This document shows positions 2,644 through 27,020 of a stretch of 64,000 nucleotides of DNA, one piece after another (within the stretch, counting starts at the first letter, position 1; each line of letters starts with the position of its first letter). Made by a program: the position numbers and the translations under genes. The notes under the pieces are model-generated. The model ran no database searches and had not been told where the DNA came from. It was given only the letters and a program-made list of their open reading frames with translations. The DNA comes from an uncultured Acidimicrobiia bacterium (GTDB lineage: Bacteria; Actinomycetota; Acidimicrobiia; Spongiisociales; JAENVV01). Where the stretch lies: assembly GCA_964600365.1 (NCBI GenBank), contig CAZRJG010000002.1, positions 36,180 to 100,179 on the forward strand, read 5' to 3'.

Positions 2644-3015
2644 CTACGAGAAACTATTCCCGCATCCACACGAACGAGTCACGTTCGGGTTGTTGATCGA
2701 GAATCCGGAACCCATGAGACCGTCCTTGAAGTCGAGCGTCGCTCCACGGATCATGTCGGCGCTCTGGGGATCCACGAGCACCCGGACGTCGCCATCGGTG
2801 CCGAACGTCTCGACGATGTCATCGTCCTCGACCTGCGTGTCGAAGTACATCTCGTACGAGAAGCCCGAGCAGCCACCTGGGCGAACGGCCATTCGCAAGG
2901 CGAGATCGGGATCGCCCTCGGCTGCGACGAGTTCGCGGATCTTCTCCACGGCGAGGTCGGTGAGCTGCACCGTCGTGCCGGGGGCCTTGGACTTGATGAA
3001 GAGCGACTGTTCCAT
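2644..3015 (-). CDS. Iron-sulfur cluster insertion protein ErpA/IscA (HesB family)
   Basis: HesB signature: C..GCSGFSY... and C-terminal GCGCG(N)SF. The internal Met at 3015 gives the canonical length of about 123 aa; the longer ORF to 3060 is probably an N-terminal over-extension. Confidence 0.8.
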   Translation of the reverse strand: MEQSLFIKSKAPGTTVQLTDLAVEKIRELVAAEGDPDLALRMAVRPGGCSGFSYEMYFDTQVEDDDIVETFGTDGDVRVLVDPQSADMIRGATLDFKDGLMGSGFSINNPNVTRSCGCGNSFS

Positions 3016-12738: not shown

Positions 12739-13133
12739 CTGCACCCGGTACGCCGGTACACGACCATCCACGCACTCCCGAAGCGCTCCCGTTCCTCGTC
12801 GGTCGACCGGCGCAGGAACGGTCCCTCCCGCGGCGACCACCCCTCGGGAGTGGGTTCGAGCAGGTTCGCTTCGGTGCGACGGGAGTAGCTGCTCAACCGG
12901 TTCCCCAGGTAGGTGAGCACCGAGTAGCGGGTACCCGATCCGTACAGCCCGTAGCGCTCCACGAGCGCGTCCCATCGATCCGGGAACGCCGCCGCGAAGG
13001 CATCGGCGAACGCCAGGATCGAAAAGGAGGGGGCCATCAGCTCGATCGTCGCCTCCACCTCTTCGTCGGGGACGAGGGGGATCCTGTCTCCATCCGCTGC
13101 GTGGCCCGAGGCTACGCGCGCACGCGCCGCCAT
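12735..13133 (-). CDS. Hypothetical protein (132 aa)
   Basis: Coding-like composition. It is convergent with the SARP gene, and the two stop codons overlap inside a GCTAGC palindrome. No family recognised. Confidence 0.4.
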   Translation of the reverse strand: MAARARVASGHAADGDRIPLVPDEEVEATIELMAPSFSILAFADAFAAAFPDRWDALVERYGLYGSGTRYSVLTYLGNRLSSYSRRTEANLLEPTPEGWSPREGPFLRRSTDEERERFGSAWMVVYRRTGCS

Positions 13134-13163
13134 CGGGTTCCCGCCCCCGGCACCCGACCGACA

Positions 13164-13200
13164 CCAGGCAGGGCCGCCCCGTCGGGGCGGCCCTGCCTGG
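13164..13200. other. Very stable GC hairpin: 17-bp perfect stem CCAGGCAGGGCCGCCCC / GGGGCGGCCCTGCCTGG with a 3-nt loop
   Basis: Read directly. It abuts the att-like tRNA-fragment repeat. A related 9-bp-stem hairpin (GGGCCGCCC-CGAA-GGGCGGCCC) sits at 15235-15256 next to the intact tRNA-Pro. Confidence 0.6.
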
Positions 13201-13208
13201 TGTCTCTT

Positions 13209-13253
13209 GGTCGGGACGGTCGGATTTGAACCGACGACCTCAGCGTCCCGAAG
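13209..13253 (-). repeat. attR-like partial copy of the tRNA-Pro 3' half (anticodon loop to CCA end; 43/45 identical to 15273-15317)
   Basis: tggtcgggacggtcggatttgaaccgacgacctcagcgtcccgaa compared with tggtcgggacggtgggatttgaacccacgacctcagcgtcccgaa. The 5' half of a tRNA is absent, so this is not a second tRNA gene. Confidence 0.7.
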
Positions 13254-13346
13254 GCGCCCGCCATGGACTGAGGCGTACTCCTGCGGACCAAAACCCCAGG
13301 TCAGAGCAGTACGGTGACTGCCGCGAACTGCGGTGGACGCCTACGG

Positions 13347-13368
13347 ACGCGCGATGGACGCGCGATGG
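13347..13368. repeat. Tandem 11-mer GACGCGCGATG x2 (copy A), candidate integrase arm-type site
   Basis: An identical 22-mer recurs at 15194-15215, just inside the other end of the island. Confidence 0.4.
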
Positions 13369-13380
13369 AGCGGGGTTCGG

Positions 13381-13662
13381 TCAGGCGACCTCGAGGAACC
13401 GGCGGATCGCCTCACGGATGATCTCGCTGGTGGTGGTGTGCTCGGCTTCGGCGCGCGCTTCGATCGCAGCTCGCAGTTCGGGGTCGATGCGGACCGGCAC
13501 GACGTCGGCCGGACCCGATCCCATCGGAGGCCGACCCCGGCGCCGGGTCTTGAGGGCTTCGACGTCGTATTCGGTCTCGGCGACCTCGTTGGCGAGTGCG
13601 TCGATCTCCTCGTCGGTGAGGGTGCGGCCGCTGCGCGTGCGATGGGTCTTCGCTTCCGTCAT
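13381..13662 (-). CDS. BrnA-like antitoxin with C-terminal ribbon-helix-helix domain
   Basis: 93 aa. The C-terminal part (VVPVRIDPELRAAIEARAEAEHTTTSEIIREAIRRFL) is an RHH fold. The ATG overlaps the upstream toxin stop by 4 nt (ATGA). Confidence 0.65.
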   Translation of the reverse strand: MTEAKTHRTRSGRTLTDEEIDALANEVAETEYDVEALKTRRRGRPPMGSGPADVVPVRIDPELRAAIEARAEAEHTTTSEIIREAIRRFLEVA

Positions 13663-13922
13663 GGCATGTCCTCCCTGGTCTGCGGGAGCAAGTCGTAGAA
13701 GGTCGGTCGGAGCGGCATGGCGTGGATCACCAGATTGATGTCGTCGGCGAGTTCGAGCCAGATGATCTCCAGCAGATTGCCAGCTCGGTCGGGTCCGATG
13801 GCAAGGGCTTTGGGTGGGTCTGCGTCGGGGTCGAGGTCGATAATGGTGATGGCATGGTCGAGGGCGTGGAGGATGGCGGCATCGTCGATACCGTGCTTGC
13901 GGGCCGACCGGTGGATCTCCAC
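13659..13922 (-). CDS. BrnT-like (DUF497) toxin, toxin-first operon
   Basis: 87-aa core (VEIHRSARKHGIDDAAILHAL...AIGPDRAGNLLEIIWLEL...VIHAMPLRPT) resembles the BrnT/DUF497 layout KHG(I/V)..EA ... iG..r.G.lL.vv ... I(S/H)A(R/M). GTG start chosen just downstream of a palindromic operator. The 154-aa ORF extension upstream is judged spurious. Confidence 0.5.
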   Translation of the reverse strand: MEIHRSARKHGIDDAAILHALDHAITIIDLDPDADPPKALAIGPDRAGNLLEIIWLELADDINLVIHAMPLRPTFYDLLPQTREDMP

Positions 13923-13925
13923 ATC

Positions 13926-13945
13926 ACAATATTGTAATACGAAAG
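13926..13945. promoter_or_regulatory. Palindromic operator ACAATATTGT (10-bp perfect, imperfectly extended) overlapping a -10-like TACAAT, immediately 5' of the toxin start
   Basis: On the coding (minus) strand the sequence reads ...CGTATTACAATATTGTGATGTGG.... RHH antitoxins typically autoregulate at such palindromes. The spacing suggests a leaderless or near-leaderless transcript. Confidence 0.35.
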
Positions 13946-14085
13946 TCAGGTGAAGGGAACCGACTGTCTGACATCGCTGGGGGATACGCCTACGTGTCAG
14001 CGTGTCGCCTGCGGCCGATCCTGGAAGTGCCGTTCCCGGGTGCTTTGCGGAATGTGCGATATGGCACCGTATTTGGTGTTCTGGG

Positions 14086-14460
14086 CTACTCGGCGAGGTC
14101 GATGGTTCCGTCGCGTCGGCCACCTTCGGAGAAGGTTCGGAATCCGATCAGGGCCATGAGGAACCAGACGGCGCCGATGAGCAGTTCGAGGCCTAGCTCC
14201 CCGAACGCCCCAGACGAGATCCCGTTTGTGAGCAGGTCCCGCGTACCGAGGAGTCCGTGGTGGAGCGGAAGTAGGTTGGCGATCTGTTGCACCCATTCGG
14301 GAAAGACCTCGGTGGCGACGTTGACGCCGCCGATGGCGACGAGGGTGTAGAAGACGAAGTTGAAGAGGATGTTGCCGATGCGGAGGCGTCGGATGCTGAT
14401 CGCGGCGAGGAAGAGGCCGAGCCCGTAGGAGCCGAGAGCGACGGCGATGAGGCCGACCGG
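14086..14460 (-). pseudogene. C-terminal fragment (about 125 aa) of an ABC-2 type transporter permease, 5'-truncated
   Basis: The frame reads ...WWLLPVGLIAVALGSYGLGLFLAAISIRRLRIGNILFNFVFYTLVAIGGVNVATEVFPEWVQQIANLLPLHHGLLGTRDLL...GAVWFLMALIGF and then stops. No N-terminal part is present; the sequence upstream switches to the integrase fragment at about 14461. Confidence 0.5.
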
Positions 14461-14462
14461 CA

Positions 14463-15194
14463 GAAGCCACCAGTGGCCGGCTCAACGCCGCCGTGCTCGA
14501 CGATCGGATCGCCCGGTCACCCTGTCGGGGCATTCGGCTGCCGGCCATCCAACCGACCGACCGGCCCGTGCTCACGGCTTCCCAGTTGGCGGATCTCACT
14601 GAGGCGCTGGGACCCGACTACGGGCTGATGGTGCATCTCGGGGCGGTGCTCGGGCTGCGGTGGGGTGAATGCGCCGGACTCCGCATCGGTCGGATCGACT
14701 TCGACCGAGCGACCGTCGCCATCACCGAACAGGTCACCCGGGGCGCCGGAGGCCGCTCGGTCCTCGGGCCACCCAAGTCCCAGGCCGCCCGCAGGACCCT
14801 GGCCGCACCGCCGGTGCTCACAGATCTCATCGCCGAGCACCTCGAGCGTCGGGGGCTCACAACCAGAGACACCCATGCCTTCCTGTTCGCCGGCTTGGAC
14901 GGTGGACACCTCGACTACTCGAACTGGCTGCACCGAATCTGGTATCCCGCCCGCCAACAAGCCGGTGTCGAGTGGGCCCAATTCCACGACCTCCGCCGAG
15001 CAAACGCCACCGGACTCGTCCTCGAAGGCATCGACCTCAAGACCGCCCAAACCCGACTCGGGCACACCGACCCGAGGCTGACACTCGGCATCTACGCCCA
15101 AGCCAGCACCGAAGCCGACCGCCACGCCGCCGAACGACTCGGCGACCGATTCCTCCCGAAACGGGACCACGACAACGGAAGAGGCCTTATCTGA
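14463..15194 (+). pseudogene. Tyrosine recombinase (phage integrase) catalytic domain only, N-terminal arm/core-binding domains missing
   Basis: R...HxLRH...Y-type catalytic region (LGLRWGECAGLRIGRID...HDLRRANATGLV...RLGHTDPRLTLGIYAQ). The frame opens at about 14463 without a plausible start or N-domain. The stop lies immediately before tandem 11-mer copy B. Confidence 0.6.
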
Positions 15195-15215
15195 CGCGCG
15201 ATGGACGCGCGATGG
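15194..15215. repeat. Tandem 11-mer GACGCGCGATG x2 (copy B)
   Basis: Identical to 13347-13368. Confidence 0.4.
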
Positions 15216-15272
15216 AAACCCCTCCCAAACCAGCGGGCCGCCCCGAAGGGCGGCCCTGACCTGGGGTTTCTC

Positions 15273-15349
15273 TGGTCGGGACGGTGGGATTTGAACCCAC
15301 GACCTCAGCGTCCCGAACGCTGCGCGCTGCCAAACTGCGCCACGTCCCG
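15273..15349 (-). tRNA. tRNA-Pro (anticodon CGG)
   Basis: Manual fold: acceptor CGGGACG/CGTCCCG, D-arm GCGC-AGTTTGGCA-GCGC, anticodon stem CAGCG/CGCTG with loop TTCGGGA (U33, CGG, G37), T-arm GTGGG-TTCAAAT-CCCAC, discriminator A, encoded CCA. Confidence 0.85.
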
Positions 15350-15394
15350 ATCGGGTGCGTGAGGATAGGACGCGCGACAGCCCAAACGGAACCG

Positions 15395-24801: not shown

Positions 24802-25606
24802 ACCGCCGGGCGATGAGCACAGCGAAGAACGCCAGCACGGGGATGATCGCGACGGTTGCCGACGCTGCCGTGCCGAGGTGGTAGCTCAGCAGGAGTCCCA
24901 CGACCACCGACGCCACCCCGATGAGGGACGCCACGAGCATCGTCACCGGCACCGTCCTGGCCACCAGCGCGGCGGTTGCCGCCGGACCGATGAGCAGGCC
25001 GAACACGAGGAGCGTCCCCACCGTCCGGAATGAGCCGACGATCGCAAGGGTGATGAGTCCCAGGAGCACGAAGTGCGAGAGCGCAGGACGCATCCCGAGC
25101 ATGGAGGCCTTCTGCTCGTTGAACGACAGGACGAGGAACGGGCGGTAGAAGACCTGCGAGACGATCGCCACGACCCCGACCACGACCGTGAGGGTGACGA
25201 GGTCGCCCCGCGTCACACCGAGGGCGTCACCGAAGAGGATGGTCGTGAGGCTCCCAGCGAAGGAATCCATCCTCGAGACGAGGATGACGCCGAGGGCGAG
25301 CATGCCCACGAAGAGGAGTCCGATGCCGGTGTCCTCGCTGAACGAGGCCAGTCGATGGACGAGTCCGATGCCCGCCACCACCACGACGGCTGCGAGCGCA
25401 GCGCCGACGAGGGGTGGGATGTCGAGCAGGATGGCGAGGGCGATGCCGGGGATGACACCGTGGACGAGGGCATCGCCGAAGAAGCTCATCCCCCGCAGCA
25501 CCACCCACGTGCCGACCACAGCTGCGGCAATGGCTGCAAGCGATCCGGCGAGGAGGGCGCGCTGCTGGAACGCGAACTCGAACGGCTCGAGCAACCAGTC
25601 CATCAT
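24767..25606 (-). CDS. znuB: Metal (Zn/Mn) ABC transporter permease, ABC-3 family
   Basis: 8-TM hydrophobic protein with a ZnuB/MntB-like pattern. It forms an operon with the upstream substrate-binding protein gene. Confidence 0.8.
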   Translation of the reverse strand: MMDWLLEPFEFAFQQRALLAGSLAAIAAAVVGTWVVLRGMSFFGDALVHGVIPGIALAILLDIPPLVGAALAAVVVVAGIGLVHRLASFSEDTGIGLLFVGMLALGVILVSRMDSFAGSLTTILFGDALGVTRGDLVTLTVVVGVVAIVSQVFYRPFLVLSFNEQKASMLGMRPALSHFVLLGLITLAIVGSFRTVGTLLVFGLLIGPAATAALVARTVPVTMLVASLIGVASVVVGLLLSYHLGTAASATVAIIPVLAFFAVLIARRFSLRRATPHAP

Positions 25607-26532
25607 CCTGCCCCGAGGGCGTCAGCGATGCGCCGGGCGTTCTCGAGCAGGAATCCCTCGATGGTGTCGGTTGGGGCGTTCCCGTCCGGTCCCGCGGTGA
25701 CCAGTCGCACCACGGAGACCTCGCCGTCGAACTCGGCGGCGAGCGCCTCGGCGACCGTCGTGGAAGCGGACGTATCGATGAAGATCGCCCGAATCCCCTC
25801 CGCTTCGATCCGCCCAGCAAGCGCCGCCAGCTCCTGGGAGCTCGGGGCTGCATCGGTCGAGCCGCCGGGGATCACGACACCGACCACCTCGAAGCCGAAC
25901 CGGTCGGCGAAGTACCCGAAGGAGTCGTGGTTCGACACCAGCCGCCGATCCTCGACCCCGTCGAGCAGGTCGACCATCTCTGCGGCGAGAGCGTCCATCC
26001 GATCAGCGTACGCCGCGGCCGCTTCGACCGCGCCCACGTCGCCGAAGCGTGCGTCCATCTCCACGGCGAGGGCCCGGGCGACGAGGCCGATCCGCACCGG
26101 ATCGAGCCAGACATGGGGATCCTCGTCGGCGTGGTCCTCATCGGCGAGGTCCTCGTCTTCGTGGTCACCGAACGGAAGCGGATCGGCAGCCTCGCCGGCC
26201 ACGAAGACGGGGATTCCGTCGGTCCCGGCGGCATCGACGGTATCGGCGAGACCCTCCTCGAGGCCGAGGCCGTTCACCACGATGAGGTCCGCACGGCGGA
26301 GATCGGCTGCCTGGGCGGCCGAGGGGACGAAGTCGTGGGGGTCCACGCCTGCGGGGAGGAGTACCTCCACGCGGAGTCGGTCGGAGGGGTCCAGGGCATC
26401 CACGACCTCGGCCCACACCGACGTGGAGACCACGACGAGCGGGCGATCGTCATCGGACGATCCATCGCTACACGCGGCGAGCACGAGCGAGAAGGCAAGC
26501 ATGAGCACGGTTGACCGTTGGAGCCAGGGCAT
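25603..26532 (-). CDS. znuA: Metal ABC transporter substrate-binding lipoprotein (ZnuA/TroA family) with a His/Asp/Glu-rich loop
   Basis: Lipobox LAAC, a cluster-9 SBP fold and an acidic/His-rich insertion (DHEDEDLADEDHADEDPH) typical of ZnuA. Start at the internal Met (26530-26532). Confidence 0.8.
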   Translation of the reverse strand: MPWLQRSTVLMLAFSLVLAACSDGSSDDDRPLVVVSTSVWAEVVDALDPSDRLRVEVLLPAGVDPHDFVPSAAQAADLRRADLIVVNGLGLEEGLADTVDAAGTDGIPVFVAGEAADPLPFGDHEDEDLADEDHADEDPHVWLDPVRIGLVARALAVEMDARFGDVGAVEAAAAYADRMDALAAEMVDLLDGVEDRRLVSNHDSFGYFADRFGFEVVGVVIPGGSTDAAPSSQELAALAGRIEAEGIRAIFIDTSASTTVAEALAAEFDGEVSVVRLVTAGPDGNAPTDTIEGFLLENARRIADALGAG

Positions 26533-26552
26533 GTCGAGAACACCATGTTGGG

Positions 26553-26565
26553 AATGATTATCATT
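26553..26565. promoter_or_regulatory. Zur/Fur-box-like palindrome AATGAT-T-ATCATT in the znuA / zur divergent intergenic region
   Basis: Perfect 6-1-6 palindrome matching the core of actinobacterial Zur boxes (TGAnAATcATTnTCA-like), sited between the divergent znuA and zur starts. Confidence 0.5.
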
Positions 26566-26570
26566 ATACT

Positions 26571-27020
26571 GTGCTCGTGGGATTGGATGAATCGACCGAC
26601 CTCCAGGTACGCACCCGGCTCGGGGAGCGCGGTGCGCGGCTGACGGCGACCCGCCGCGCCGTCCTCTATGCGCTCCTCGAGCGTCCGGGCCCATCCCCCG
26701 TTGCAGAGCTCGACGGCGACCTCCCGGACATCCCCCTCTCCTCCCTCTACCGATCCCTCAGCGTCCTCACCGAGGCGGGGATCATCGTCTCGCTGCCCGG
26801 GGGCGAGGGCGTCTCCCTCTACGAGCCCGCCGAATGGCTCTCCGGGCACCACCACCACTTTGTGTGCCGCGTCTGTGGCACAGTGCAGGACGTGGACGTG
26901 GACGTCGATGTGGAGGAGGCCCTCGAACGGGTCTCGGCATCCGCGGCGCGACGCGGGTTCAGGGTGGAGGACCACCGACTCGCCCTCGAAGGGCGCTGCG
27001 CGGGGTGCGTCGATGCCTGA
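26571..27020 (+). CDS. zur: Fur-family zinc uptake regulator
   Basis: Fur fold with HHHF, CxxC...CxxC metal sites. GTG start chosen immediately after the Zur box; the TTG at 26511 is an alternative. Confidence 0.75.
   Translation: MLVGLDESTDLQVRTRLGERGARLTATRRAVLYALLERPGPSPVAELDGDLPDIPLSSLYRSLSVLTEAGIIVSLPGGEGVSLYEPAEWLSGHHHHFVCRVCGTVQDVDVDVDVEEALERVSASAARRGFRVEDHRLALEGRCAGCVDA

What the first reader, a model, noticed from the sequence alone, without database searches (positions are those of the whole stretch)
13381..13945. BrnT/BrnA-like toxin-antitoxin operon: toxin first, ATGA overlap, palindromic operator over a TACAAT -10
An 87-aa DUF497-like toxin (KHGI...AIGPDRAGNLLEII...VIHAMPLRPT) precedes a 93-aa antitoxin whose C-terminus is a ribbon-helix-helix (VRIDPELRAAIEARAEAEHTTTSEIIREAIRRFL). 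Toxin-first order and a C-terminal RHH are the hallmarks of BrnTA and not of most type II systems.

The toxin stop and antitoxin start overlap (ATGA). Directly 5' of the chosen GTG start lies a perfect 10-bp palindrome, ACAATATTGT, embedded in TATTACAATATTGTGATG. It overlaps a consensus-like -10 (TACAAT) and has almost no leader, which suggests a leaderless autoregulated transcript.

The ORF caller's 154-aa version of the toxin is probably a 5' over-extension.
Basis: partly seen in the sequence, partly recalled or inferred. Interest (0 to 1): 0.6.

Follow-up and report, generated by a model that had tools for sequence, protein, structure and literature searches.

The report
RelS-like toxin with RHH antitoxin
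This is an intact two-gene toxin-antitoxin module on the remnant of a mobile element; its toxin is a close relative of the recently described M. tuberculosis RelS ribosomal-RNA-cutting toxin but has a different, ribbon-helix-helix antitoxin, so it is an interesting variant rather than a new kind of system.

Summary
On the minus strand an 87-aa ORF (GTG at 13922) overlaps a 93-aa ORF by ATGA, and an AT-rich palindrome lies just upstream.

The toxin does not reach Pfam BrnT (PF04365). Its nearest characterised relative is M. tuberculosis RelS (Rv2663, PDB 9SDC; 47% identity, K9/H10/H67/R72 kept). RelS is a BrnT-fold RNase that cuts the 16S rRNA anti-Shine-Dalgarno region. The antitoxin has a C-terminal ribbon-helix-helix (PF01402), as in BrnA, and is unrelated to RelS's partner RelI.

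All 80 related Acidimicrobiia loci keep the toxin-antitoxin pair. All 78 loci with the toxin's first residue aligned start it with GTG, and 70 of 72 analysed loci lack a Shine-Dalgarno there. The antitoxin usually has one, encoded in the toxin's tail.

What is conserved is a roughly 19-nt motif (aTTnCGTATTACRATAWTG), usually 11 nt before GTG. RelS-RelI loci carry a different upstream motif.

The module sits next to a tRNA-Pro 3' fragment, at the end of a decayed integrative element.

Autoregulation, a leaderless transcript and the rRNA target are inferred, not shown.

Verdict: a new variant of a known kind, of moderate interest.

The parts
13659..13922 (-). Toxin gene: 87 aa, GTG start at 13922-13920, TGA stop at 13661-13659. 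RelS-family, BrnT-fold RNase.
   Evidence: ORF and sequence. The family profile hits PDB 9sdc_C RelS at E 8.4e-17. BLASTP against RelS gives 47% identity over 79 aa. The AF2 model has pLDDT 88.4; its top fold hits are BrnT 3u97 and 7vd7_A. Most of the 120 listed homologues are 87 aa.
13381..13662 (-). Antitoxin gene: 93 aa. It has an acidic N-terminal helical region and a C-terminal ribbon-helix-helix (residues about 54-91).
   Evidence: PF01402 RHH_1 at E 1e-7, residues 57-91; 32 of 32 diverse relatives hit RHH_1. PDB profile hits cover only the RHH domains of ParD/CopG-type antitoxins, and there is no hit to RelI. A homologue lies directly downstream of the toxin in 80 of 80 loci.
13659..13662 (-). 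ATGA overlap of the toxin stop and the antitoxin start (translational coupling).
   Evidence: Sequence. A 4-nt overlap occurs in 64 of 72 related loci, and the stop is TGA in 72 of 72.
13669..13675 (-). Shine-Dalgarno GGGAGGA for the antitoxin, 6 nt before its ATG, encoded in the toxin's disordered C-terminal tail (…TREDMP).
   Evidence: Sequence. An SD-like element precedes the antitoxin start in 62 of 72 loci, against 2 of 72 before the toxin start. Toxin residues 85-87 have pLDDT below 50.
13927..13945 (-). Conserved AT-rich upstream motif (window: CTTTCGTATTACAATATTG; family consensus aTTnCGTATTACRATAWTG). Proposed promoter -10 region plus operator.
   Evidence: Eleven positions are invariant or nearly so in 76 sequences (75 related loci plus the window), while flanking positions carry 0.1-0.3 bit. 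The distance from TAC to GTG is 11 nt in 57 of 76. The core is unique in the window. Homology between loci starts at about 13944. The motif is absent from RelS-RelI loci.
13926..13935 (.). It is a lineage-specific variant inside the conserved motif.
   Evidence: It is the only 10-bp palindrome in the window with at least 8 A/T. It is perfect only in the A-variant subset of loci, for example L013, L014 and L022; most loci have TACGAT.
13928..13936 (-). Two overlapping -10 candidates: TACAAT (13936-13931, 8 nt before the GTG) and AATATT (13933-13928, 5 nt before the GTG).
   Evidence: Sequence and the position-specific counts. The two-hexamer sigma-70 scan found no promoter here, so this rests on the -10-like element and its conservation only.
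13954..13959 (-). TTCCCT (TTCCAT in relatives), 17 nt upstream of TACAAT. A weak -35-like element conserved only among closer relatives.
   Evidence: positions -19 to -14 relative to the motif. It matches TTGACA at only 2 of 6 positions.
13923..14123 (-). Non-coding 5' extension of the ORF caller's 154-aa version.
   Evidence: GC3 is 0.52 here against 0.82 in the 87-aa part. The extensions of longer database calls are unrelated to one another.
13208..13255 (-). Duplicate of the 3' 48 nt of tRNA-Pro(CGG) (94% identical); an attR-like end of the element, about 125 nt downstream of the antitoxin stop.
   Evidence: Repeat family D1. The same layout, toxin-antitoxin pair followed by a tRNA-Pro fragment, appears in many relatives.
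15273..15349 (-). Intact tRNA-Pro(CGG); the attL-side integration target, in the same orientation as the toxin-antitoxin operon.
   Evidence: ARAGORN and Rfam at 66.3 bits. tRNA-Pro(CGG) lies directly upstream of the pair in L009, L015, L016, L017, L021 and L052.
14493..15194 (+). Truncated tyrosine integrase: catalytic domain only, 233 aa.
   Evidence: PF00589 at E 1.3e-17, residues 29-206.

Best explanation
The locus is an intact type II toxin-antitoxin operon. It pairs a RelS-family toxin (BrnT fold) with a BrnA-style antitoxin that carries a C-terminal ribbon-helix-helix (RHH).

Shown by sequence and comparison:
- The toxin is homologous to M. tuberculosis RelS.
- It keeps the residues whose loss abolishes RelS toxicity.
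- The two genes are always found together and usually overlap by 4 nt.
- The toxin always starts with GTG and has no Shine-Dalgarno (SD).
- The antitoxin has an SD that is encoded in the toxin's tail.
- A strongly conserved AT-rich motif abuts the toxin start.
- The module is the attR-proximal cargo of a decayed integrative element at tRNA-Pro(CGG).

Inferred mechanism:
1. Transcription starts within or just after the AT-rich motif. This gives a leaderless mRNA, or one with a leader of at most about 3 nt.
2. The toxin is translated poorly (GTG, no SD). The antitoxin is translated well (SD plus coupling), so antitoxin stays in excess.
3. Antitoxin dimers bind the motif through the RHH and repress the operon.
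4. The acidic N-terminal helix of the antitoxin (residues about 17-29) covers the basic catalytic face of the toxin.
5. The freed toxin stops translation by cutting RNA, most likely the 3' anti-SD region of 16S rRNA on 30S subunits, as RelS does.
6. The module's selfish stability explains why it survives while the rest of the element decays.
For: Toxin identity:
- The family profile hits 9sdc_C RelS at E 8.4e-17.
- BLASTP gives 47% identity, E 1e-20.
- K9, H10, H67 (= RelS H64) and R72 (= RelS R69) are kept. H10, H67 and R72 are nearly invariant across 86 diverse representatives.
- In RelS the K9A, H10A and H64A substitutions severely reduce toxicity, and RelS cuts 16S rRNA between C1520 and U1521 (PMC13284704).

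Antitoxin:
- RHH_1 is above threshold.
- Public sources name the homologues 'ribbon-helix-helix protein, CopG family', and three of them 'DUF4415 family'.

Pairing and translation signals:
- 80 of 80 loci keep the pair.
- A 4-nt overlap occurs in 64 of 72 loci. An SD precedes the antitoxin in 62 of 72 and the toxin in 2 of 72.
- The toxin starts with GTG in all 78 sequences shown (77 related loci plus the window).

Cis element:
- The motif is invariant at 11 positions and sits at a near-fixed distance from the GTG.
- In L015 only 75 nt, including a hairpin, separate tRNA-Pro from the GTG, so the promoter must lie within the conserved block.
- RelS-RelI loci, which have an HTH antitoxin, carry a different conserved upstream element abutting the start codon. 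So the extended motif tracks the antitoxin class.

Mobile context.
Against: - Nothing here is experimental. Toxicity, neutralisation, DNA binding, the transcription start and the RNA target are all inferred.
- The two-hexamer sigma-70 scan found no promoter in 13100-14400, and the -35-like TTCCCT is a poor match.
- Neither -10 candidate sits the ideal 6-7 nt from the GTG (8-11 nt for TACRAT, 5-8 nt for RATAWT).
- The motif is not a consistent palindrome or repeat, so no RHH half-site model is established.
- By eye I saw no co-variation between the antitoxin beta-strand and the motif variants.
- The toxin is below the Pfam thresholds for both BrnT and DUF4258.
- RelS R61 and K71, which contribute modestly in RelS, are L64 and T74 here.
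- The 47% identity does not guarantee the same cleavage site. BrnT itself cleaves mRNA in vitro.
Confidence: 0.75

Rival explanations
1. It is a canonical BrnT/BrnA member: a ribosome-independent mRNA-cleaving RNase, neutralised and autoregulated by BrnA.
For: - The fold matches BrnT.
- The gene order is toxin first and the antitoxin's RHH is C-terminal, as described for brnTA (PMC11980606).
- 13 of 86 family representatives hit PF04365 weakly.
- Many RelS relatives carry PF04365 and are named 'BrnT family toxin'.
- 11 of 32 antitoxin relatives hit PF14384 weakly.
Against: - The window toxin gives no PF04365 hit at E up to 1.
- Identity to BrnT is only 16-18% in the structural alignments, against 47% to RelS.
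- The antitoxin scores 13.3 bits against the PF14384 cut-off of 26.1.
Confidence: 0.15
2. The AT-rich motif is only a promoter, or only an AU-rich, SD-independent ribosome or S1 loading site in a longer leader. In that case it is not an operator for the antitoxin.
For: - The motif contains -10-like hexamers.
- It has no consistent dyad symmetry.
- Antitoxin beta-strand variants (P56 to T, S or A; D60 to A) coexist with an unchanged motif.
- AU-rich leaders can replace an SD (general knowledge).
Against: - Eleven invariant positions over about 14 nt exceed what a -10 hexamer or generic AU-richness requires.
- RelS-RelI loci have an equally placed but entirely different conserved element.
- Homology between loci begins at the motif, and in L015 a tRNA terminator hairpin lies just upstream. 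That leaves no room for a distant promoter.
Confidence: 0.2
3. The toxin belongs to DUF4258/Ntox49 (the colicin-like BECR branch) rather than to the BrnT/RelS branch.
For: DUF4258 is the best Pfam hit for the window toxin (E 6e-4), and 19 of 86 family representatives hit it (best 1.5e-7).
Against: - The hit is below the gathering score (20.5 bits against 25).
- DUF4258 modules are tabulated with the antitoxin first (PMC11980606), whereas the toxin is first here.
- The solved-structure match is to RelS, and the fold matches are BrnT and 7vd7.
Confidence: 0.05
4. The pair is a decaying, non-functional remnant of the degraded integrative element.
For: The neighbouring integrase is truncated. One relative (L010) has an in-frame stop at toxin codon 6.
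Against: - Both ORFs are intact and have coding-type GC3 (0.82 and 0.84).
- The catalytic residues are kept.
- The genes, their overlap, the SD and the upstream motif are conserved across 80 loci.
Confidence: 0.05

Closest known systems
RelS-RelI (Rv2663-Rv2664) of Mycobacterium tuberculosis (Han et al., NAR 2026, PMC13284704; PDB 9SDC)
   Same: - The toxins are homologous: 47% identity, with the same N-terminus MEI/VxxSARKHGI.
- K9, H10, H64 and R69 are conserved.
- Both have a C-terminal alpha3 helix.
- Both have the toxin first and are actinobacterial.
- Both have an integrase or mobile-element context.
- The start codon abuts a conserved promoter-like element in both clades.
   Different: - The antitoxin here is an RHH protein with no detectable similarity to the HTH-type RelI.
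- The genes overlap by ATGA here, instead of the gap of about 10 nt.
- The upstream element is an AT-rich CGTATTACRATAWTG block here, not GTAAAG-N5-CTTTAC inverted repeats.
- The toxin is about 10 residues longer, with a tail that encodes the antitoxin's SD.
- The rRNA target is not shown here.
BrnT-BrnA of Brucella abortus (Heaton et al. 2012; PDB 3U97; Pfam PF04365/PF14384)
   Same: - The Lys-His pair and the Arg are conserved.
- The toxin is first.
- The antitoxin has a C-terminal RHH that, in BrnA, autoregulates the operon.
   Different: - Neither protein reaches the Pfam gathering score.
- Identity to BrnT is 16-18%.
- The toxin has the extra C-terminal helix that BrnT lacks, as RelS does.
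- The likely target is rRNA rather than free mRNA.
ParD/CopG-type RHH antitoxins (e.g. PDB 6x0a, 5ceg, 8u12 Rv0298)
   Same: The RHH DNA-binding domain is similar in sequence over residues 55-90.
   Different: In those proteins the RHH is N-terminal and the toxin-binding region is C-terminal. Here the order is reversed, and the partner toxin is not ParE or RelE.
DUF4258 (PF14076) / Ntox49 toxins
   Same: There is weak sequence similarity over residues 5-69, and 19 of 86 family representatives hit the model.
   Different: The hit is below threshold. DUF4258 modules are reported with the antitoxin first and no known function, and a 2026 preprint places them in the colicin-like BECR branch.

Membership tests
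RelS-RelI toxin-antitoxin system | Toxin homologous to RelS (Rv2663) | tested here: met
   The profile hits 9sdc_C at E 8.4e-17. BLASTP gives 47% identity over 79 aa, E 1e-20.
RelS-RelI toxin-antitoxin system | Residues essential for RelS toxicity (K9, H10, H64) present | tested here: met
   K9, H10 and H67 align with RelS K9, H10 and H64, and R72 aligns with R69. H10, H67 and R72 are at least 90% conserved in 86 representatives. Position 9 is K or R in relatives.
RelS-RelI toxin-antitoxin system | Cognate antitoxin is RelI (ClpC2-like HTH protein) | tested here: not met
   The antitoxin is an RHH_1 protein. Its profile does not hit the RelI chain of 9SDC even at E up to 10. True RelS loci have an 80-98-aa HTH partner with no Pfam hit.
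RelS-RelI toxin-antitoxin system | Cleaves 16S rRNA between C1520 and U1521 in 30S subunits | not testable with these tools
   This needs primer extension or 3'-end sequencing after induction.
BrnT-BrnA (PF04365 / PF14384) | Toxin matches PF04365 at the gathering score | tested here: not met
   There is no PF04365 hit at E up to 1 for the window toxin. 13 of 86 family representatives hit it weakly, best 1.8e-4.
BrnT-BrnA (PF04365 / PF14384) | BrnT fold (RelE-like alpha/beta) | tested here: met
   [not shown]
BrnT-BrnA (PF04365 / PF14384) | Toxin gene precedes antitoxin gene in one operon | tested here: met
   The arrangement is conserved in 80 of 80 loci.
BrnT-BrnA (PF04365 / PF14384) | Antitoxin with C-terminal RHH | tested here: met
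   PF01402 covers residues 57-91 of 93. The AF2 helices at 61-73 and 78-91 follow a beta-strand region.
BrnT-BrnA (PF04365 / PF14384) | Antitoxin matches PF14384 (BrnA/DUF4415) at the gathering score | tested here: not met
   The score is 13.3 bits against a cut-off of 26.1, E 0.11. 11 of 32 relatives hit it, best 3.7e-3, and none reaches the cut-off. JGI labels 3 homologues 'DUF4415 family'.
BrnT-BrnA (PF04365 / PF14384) | Antitoxin represses its own promoter | not testable with these tools
   Only a conserved candidate operator was found.
DUF4258 (PF14076) | Matches PF14076 at the gathering score | tested here: not met
   The score is 20.5 bits against a cut-off of 25, E 6e-4.
Type II toxin-antitoxin module (general) | Conserved adjacent small toxin and DNA-binding antitoxin genes, in a mobile context | tested here: met
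   80 of 80 loci are paired. The context includes tRNA-Pro att repeats and an integrase remnant.
Type II toxin-antitoxin module (general) | The toxin is toxic and is neutralised by direct binding of the antitoxin protein | not testable with these tools
   This is inferred from RelS (PMC13284704).
Leaderless mRNA | No Shine-Dalgarno before the start codon | tested here: met
   70 of 72 loci, the window included, have no SD-like element at -18 to -4.
Leaderless mRNA | Transcription start coincides with the first base of the start codon | tested here: inconclusive
   The -10-like hexamers end 8 nt (TACRAT) or 5 nt (RATAWT) before the GTG in 57 of 76 loci, and 1-3 nt further away in 17 others. The sigma-70 scan was negative. 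Mapping the transcription start is needed.

The most novel reading that the evidence does not exclude
The toxin's target and the operon's translation signals may form a self-locking switch.

- If this RelS-like toxin removes the anti-Shine-Dalgarno end of 16S rRNA, ribosomes can no longer start on the SD-dependent antitoxin cistron.
- The SD-less, leaderless-type toxin cistron would still be translated.
- A brief excess of free toxin would then reinforce itself. It might also shift the cell towards leaderless-mRNA translation.

The same asymmetry appears in the RelS-RelI loci examined. There the toxin's start codon abuts the promoter, and a GAGGTGA-type SD precedes the antitoxin. The asymmetry is therefore conserved across two antitoxin classes.
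Probability: 0.15. Interest if true: 0.7.

Novelty: new variant of a known kind. Interest (0 to 1): 0.4.

Why it matters
- It assigns a likely function to a sizeable family. There are 932 clusters at 90% identity, and 1254 representatives at 50% identity for the wider RelS-like superfamily. The close homologues I checked are all annotated 'hypothetical protein' in Acidimicrobiia genomes.
- It shows that the newly described RelS toxin lineage has exchanged antitoxin classes: an RHH partner here, an HTH partner (RelI) in Mycobacterium and in a phage contig.
- It supplies what the RelS paper could not find for relSI: a clear candidate cis-regulatory element, and sequence features (GTG start, no SD, SD-bearing toxin tail, ATGA coupling) that explain how a toxin-first operon keeps its antitoxin in excess. 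Each of these is directly testable.
- It is also a clean example of a toxin-antitoxin pair outliving the integrative element that brought it.

Tried and rejected
- NCBIfam gave nothing for the toxin. PADLOC gave nothing for either protein.
- The two-hexamer promoter scan found no site.
- An exact 15-mer scan of metagenome contigs with CGTATTACGATATTG returned 120 hits and was truncated. Only 8 hits lie next to the toxin; the rest are unrelated contexts, mostly in low-GC DNA. The scan therefore says nothing about how specific the motif is.
- Exact look-ups of the window antitoxin and of P0121 found no contig on record, so the source genome was not identified beyond 'Acidimicrobiia-like'.
- The AF2 model of the antitoxin monomer was too weak (pLDDT 70, pTM 0.30) to justify a fold search.
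- I looked by eye for co-variation between the antitoxin beta-strand residues and the motif variants and saw none. No formal test was made.
- I initially took ORF 14086-14292 (-) for an ABC-2 permease fragment. Pfam gave no hit, so I dropped that label.
- The viral collection holds only two distant relatives, so a phage origin for this clade is not supported.
Full report
**What is there.** The genes lie on the minus strand. An 87-aa ORF starts with GTG at 13922-13920 and ends with TGA at 13661-13659. A 93-aa ORF starts with ATG at 13662-13660 and stops at 13383-13381, so the stop and the start overlap as ATGA. The sequence cgTATTACAATATTGTGATGTG holds the perfect palindrome ACAATATTGT (13926-13935) and TACAAT (13931-13936).

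A 10-bp palindrome is not rare here: the window has 103. This is the only one with at least 8 A/T. Its surroundings are one of only two AT-rich patches in a window of 68.4% GC.

The ORF caller's 154-aa version is an over-extension:
- Most of the 120 listed homologues are 87 aa.
- The extensions of the longer calls do not align with one another.
- GC3 falls from 0.82 in the 87-aa part to 0.52 in the extension.

**The toxin.** Pfam gives only a sub-threshold DUF4258 hit (20.5 bits against a cut-off of 25) and no BrnT hit. NCBIfam and PADLOC give nothing.

A profile of 94 homologues matches one solved structure, 9sdc chain C, at E 8.4e-17. That chain is M. tuberculosis RelS (Rv2663), published in June 2026 (PMC13284704). 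According to that paper:
- It is acutely toxic.
- It does not cut mRNA in vitro.
- It cleaves 16S rRNA between C1520 and U1521, in the anti-Shine-Dalgarno (SD) core.
- K9A, H10A and H64A substitutions severely reduce its toxicity.

The wider family has 1254 representatives at 50% identity with E at or below 1e-3. Of 86 diverse members, 19 touch DUF4258 and 13 touch BrnT. Many closer relatives of RelS itself carry PF04365 hits and are named 'BrnT family toxin'. The informative assignment is RelS-like.

**The antitoxin.** Residues 57-91 match RHH_1 above threshold. All 32 diverse relatives do the same, while PF14384 (BrnA) is hit only weakly, by 11 of 32.

Against solved structures, only the RHH domains of ParD/CopG-type antitoxins match. 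The RelI chain of 9SDC does not match.

The N-terminal half is predicted as a short hairpin plus two helices, the first of them acidic (residues 17-29). The monomer model is weak.

The architecture is therefore BrnA-like, with toxin binding at the N-terminus and the RHH at the C-terminus. The partner class differs from that of RelS.

**Comparative anatomy.** A scan of one genome per species found 251 relatives. The 80 best are all Acidimicrobiia or Actinomycetota MAGs.
- All 80 have the antitoxin homologue immediately downstream.
- In 72 analysable loci the toxin stop is always TGA, and 64 have the 4-nt overlap.
- An SD-like element precedes the antitoxin in 62 of those loci and the toxin in 2.
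- In the window the antitoxin's GGGAGGA (13675-13669) is encoded by the toxin's low-confidence tail …TREDMP.
- All 78 sequences shown (77 related loci plus the window) start the toxin with GTG.
- The antitoxin is more conserved than the toxin in 36 of 46 loci.

**The upstream element.** Anchoring the upstream regions shows a motif, aTTnCGTATTAC(G/A)ATA(T/A)Tg. G, T, A, T, A, C, T and A are invariant in 76 of 76 sequences (75 related loci plus the window), while flanking positions carry 0.1-0.3 bit. The distance from TAC to GTG is 11 nt in 57 loci, 12-14 nt in 17, and 10 and 29 nt in one each. The core occurs once in the window, against 0 expected.

Most loci have TACGAT. The invariant symmetric core is GTAnTAC, often CGTAnTACG.

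There are two overlapping -10 candidates:
- TACRAT, which has a weak TTCCAT 17 nt upstream in closer relatives and ends 8-11 nt from the GTG.
- RATAWT, which ends 5-8 nt from the GTG.

The simple sigma-70 scan is negative.

The promoter must nevertheless lie within the conserved block, for two reasons. Inter-locus homology begins at about 13944. In L015 only 75 nt, including the tRNA terminator hairpin, precede the GTG.

A transcript with no leader, or a leader of 3 nt or less, is therefore the likeliest reading. It remains unproven.

**Control clade.** I fetched RelS-RelI-type loci from Mycobacterium tuberculosis, Mycolicibacterium, Mycobacteroides, Tessaracoccus, Propioniciclava, Flexivirga and a Glycomyces-like genome. 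They lack the GTAWTAC motif.

They share a different layout:
- An inverted repeat GTAAAC-N5-6-(C)TTGAC, which contains a TTGACA -35.
- About 17 nt further on, an inverted repeat GTAAAG-GTAnnC-TTTAC, which contains a TANNNT -10.
- Then 6 nt, then the ATG or GTG.

So in both clades the toxin's start codon abuts the promoter, and the extended conserved sequence changes with the antitoxin class. This supports an operator role for the Acidimicrobiia motif. It also suggests that relSI has operators, which the paper reported it could not find.

**Context.** tRNA-Pro(CGG) lies at 15273-15349 (-). Its 3' 48 nt are repeated at 13208-13255 with 94% identity. Between the two lie a truncated tyrosine integrase (14493-15194 +, catalytic domain only) and the toxin-antitoxin pair.

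Many relatives show the same cassette, from the motif through the pair to a tRNA-Pro fragment. In L017 the pair alone, about 810 bp, sits between the tRNA and its repeat.

The module is therefore the attR-proximal cargo of a tRNA-Pro-targeting element, and it outlasts the rest of that element.

**Verdict.** This is a genuine, apparently functional type II toxin-antitoxin module. It pairs a RelS-family toxin with a BrnA-style RHH antitoxin, a partner swap within a known kind. It has an unusually well conserved promoter/operator block and a translation-signal asymmetry that plausibly keeps the antitoxin in excess. Interest is moderate.

The most novel reading not excluded is a self-locking switch. 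Anti-SD cleavage would silence the SD-dependent antitoxin and spare the SD-less toxin message.

Noticed in passing
L203-L212 (e.g. L205 = M. tuberculosis CP069063 2975077-2978310, about 70 nt upstream of the toxin start at 1501): RelS-RelI-type loci from seven actinobacterial sources share two inverted repeats upstream of the toxin. GTAAAC-N5-6-CTTGAC overlaps a TTGACA -35. GTAAAG-GTAnnC-TTTAC overlaps a TANNNT -10 that ends 6 nt before the start codon. This looks like a leaderless promoter with two operators. The RelSI paper states that no inverted repeats were found upstream.
   Followed up: partly
window 13346-13369 and 15193-15216: An exact 24-nt direct repeat, GACGCGCGATGGACGCGCGATGGA (a tandem 11-mer), flanks the integrase-to-antitoxin segment. 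The 10-mer GGACGCGCGA recurs at 15368-15377, beyond the tRNA. Its role (integrase arm sites, or a recombination scar) is unknown.
   Followed up: no
window 13160-13204: A perfect 22-bp-arm hairpin with a 1-nt loop lies just past the tRNA-Pro 3' fragment. A 73%-similar copy follows the intact tRNA at 15235-15271. The tRNA's terminator region is therefore duplicated along with the att repeat.
   Followed up: partly
L017 19-904; also L009, L015, L021, L052: In some genomes the toxin-antitoxin pair lies directly after tRNA-Pro(CGG). In L017 it is the only content (about 810 bp) between the tRNA and a repeat of the tRNA's 3' end. This is a minimal islet that retains only the addiction module.
   Followed up: partly
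L010 2822-3082: One close relative has an in-frame TGA at toxin codon 6 with an intact antitoxin. This may be toxin inactivation, or an assembly error.
   Followed up: no
L082 4001-4566 (IMG/VR contig; L081 is the same): A 76-aa RelS-like toxin with an ATG start is followed by an HTH, RelI-like ORF. The pair sits between a 583-aa ORF and a 486-aa ORF that look like terminase and portal genes. A phage-borne RelS-RelI-type pair is therefore likely.
   Followed up: partly
window 26548-26573: The only other AT-rich patch in the window holds the palindrome AATGATTATCATT. It lies between a ZnuA-like solute-binding ORF (25603-26694 -) and a Fur/Zur-like ORF (26511-27020 +, with CxxC motifs). It is probably a Zur or Fur box. 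The ORF assignments were made by eye, not by Pfam.
   Followed up: partly
window 13727-13927 (-), frame +1 relative to the toxin: GTGATGTGG places an ATG (13924-13922) one frame off, overlapping the toxin's GTG, and opens a 65-66-aa ORF. If transcription starts at A13924, the 5'-terminal AUG would be out of frame with the toxin. I did not check whether this is conserved.
   Followed up: no
L058, about 50 nt upstream of the toxin start at 3001: This locus has two copies of the AT-rich motif (GTATTACAATATT and GTTACAATAAT) about 20 nt apart, upstream of the GTG.
   Followed up: no
L001-L080: The antitoxin is more conserved than the toxin: mean identity 80.9% against 76.6%, and higher in 36 of 46 loci. 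As far as I know (not checked here), type II pairs usually show the opposite.
   Followed up: partly
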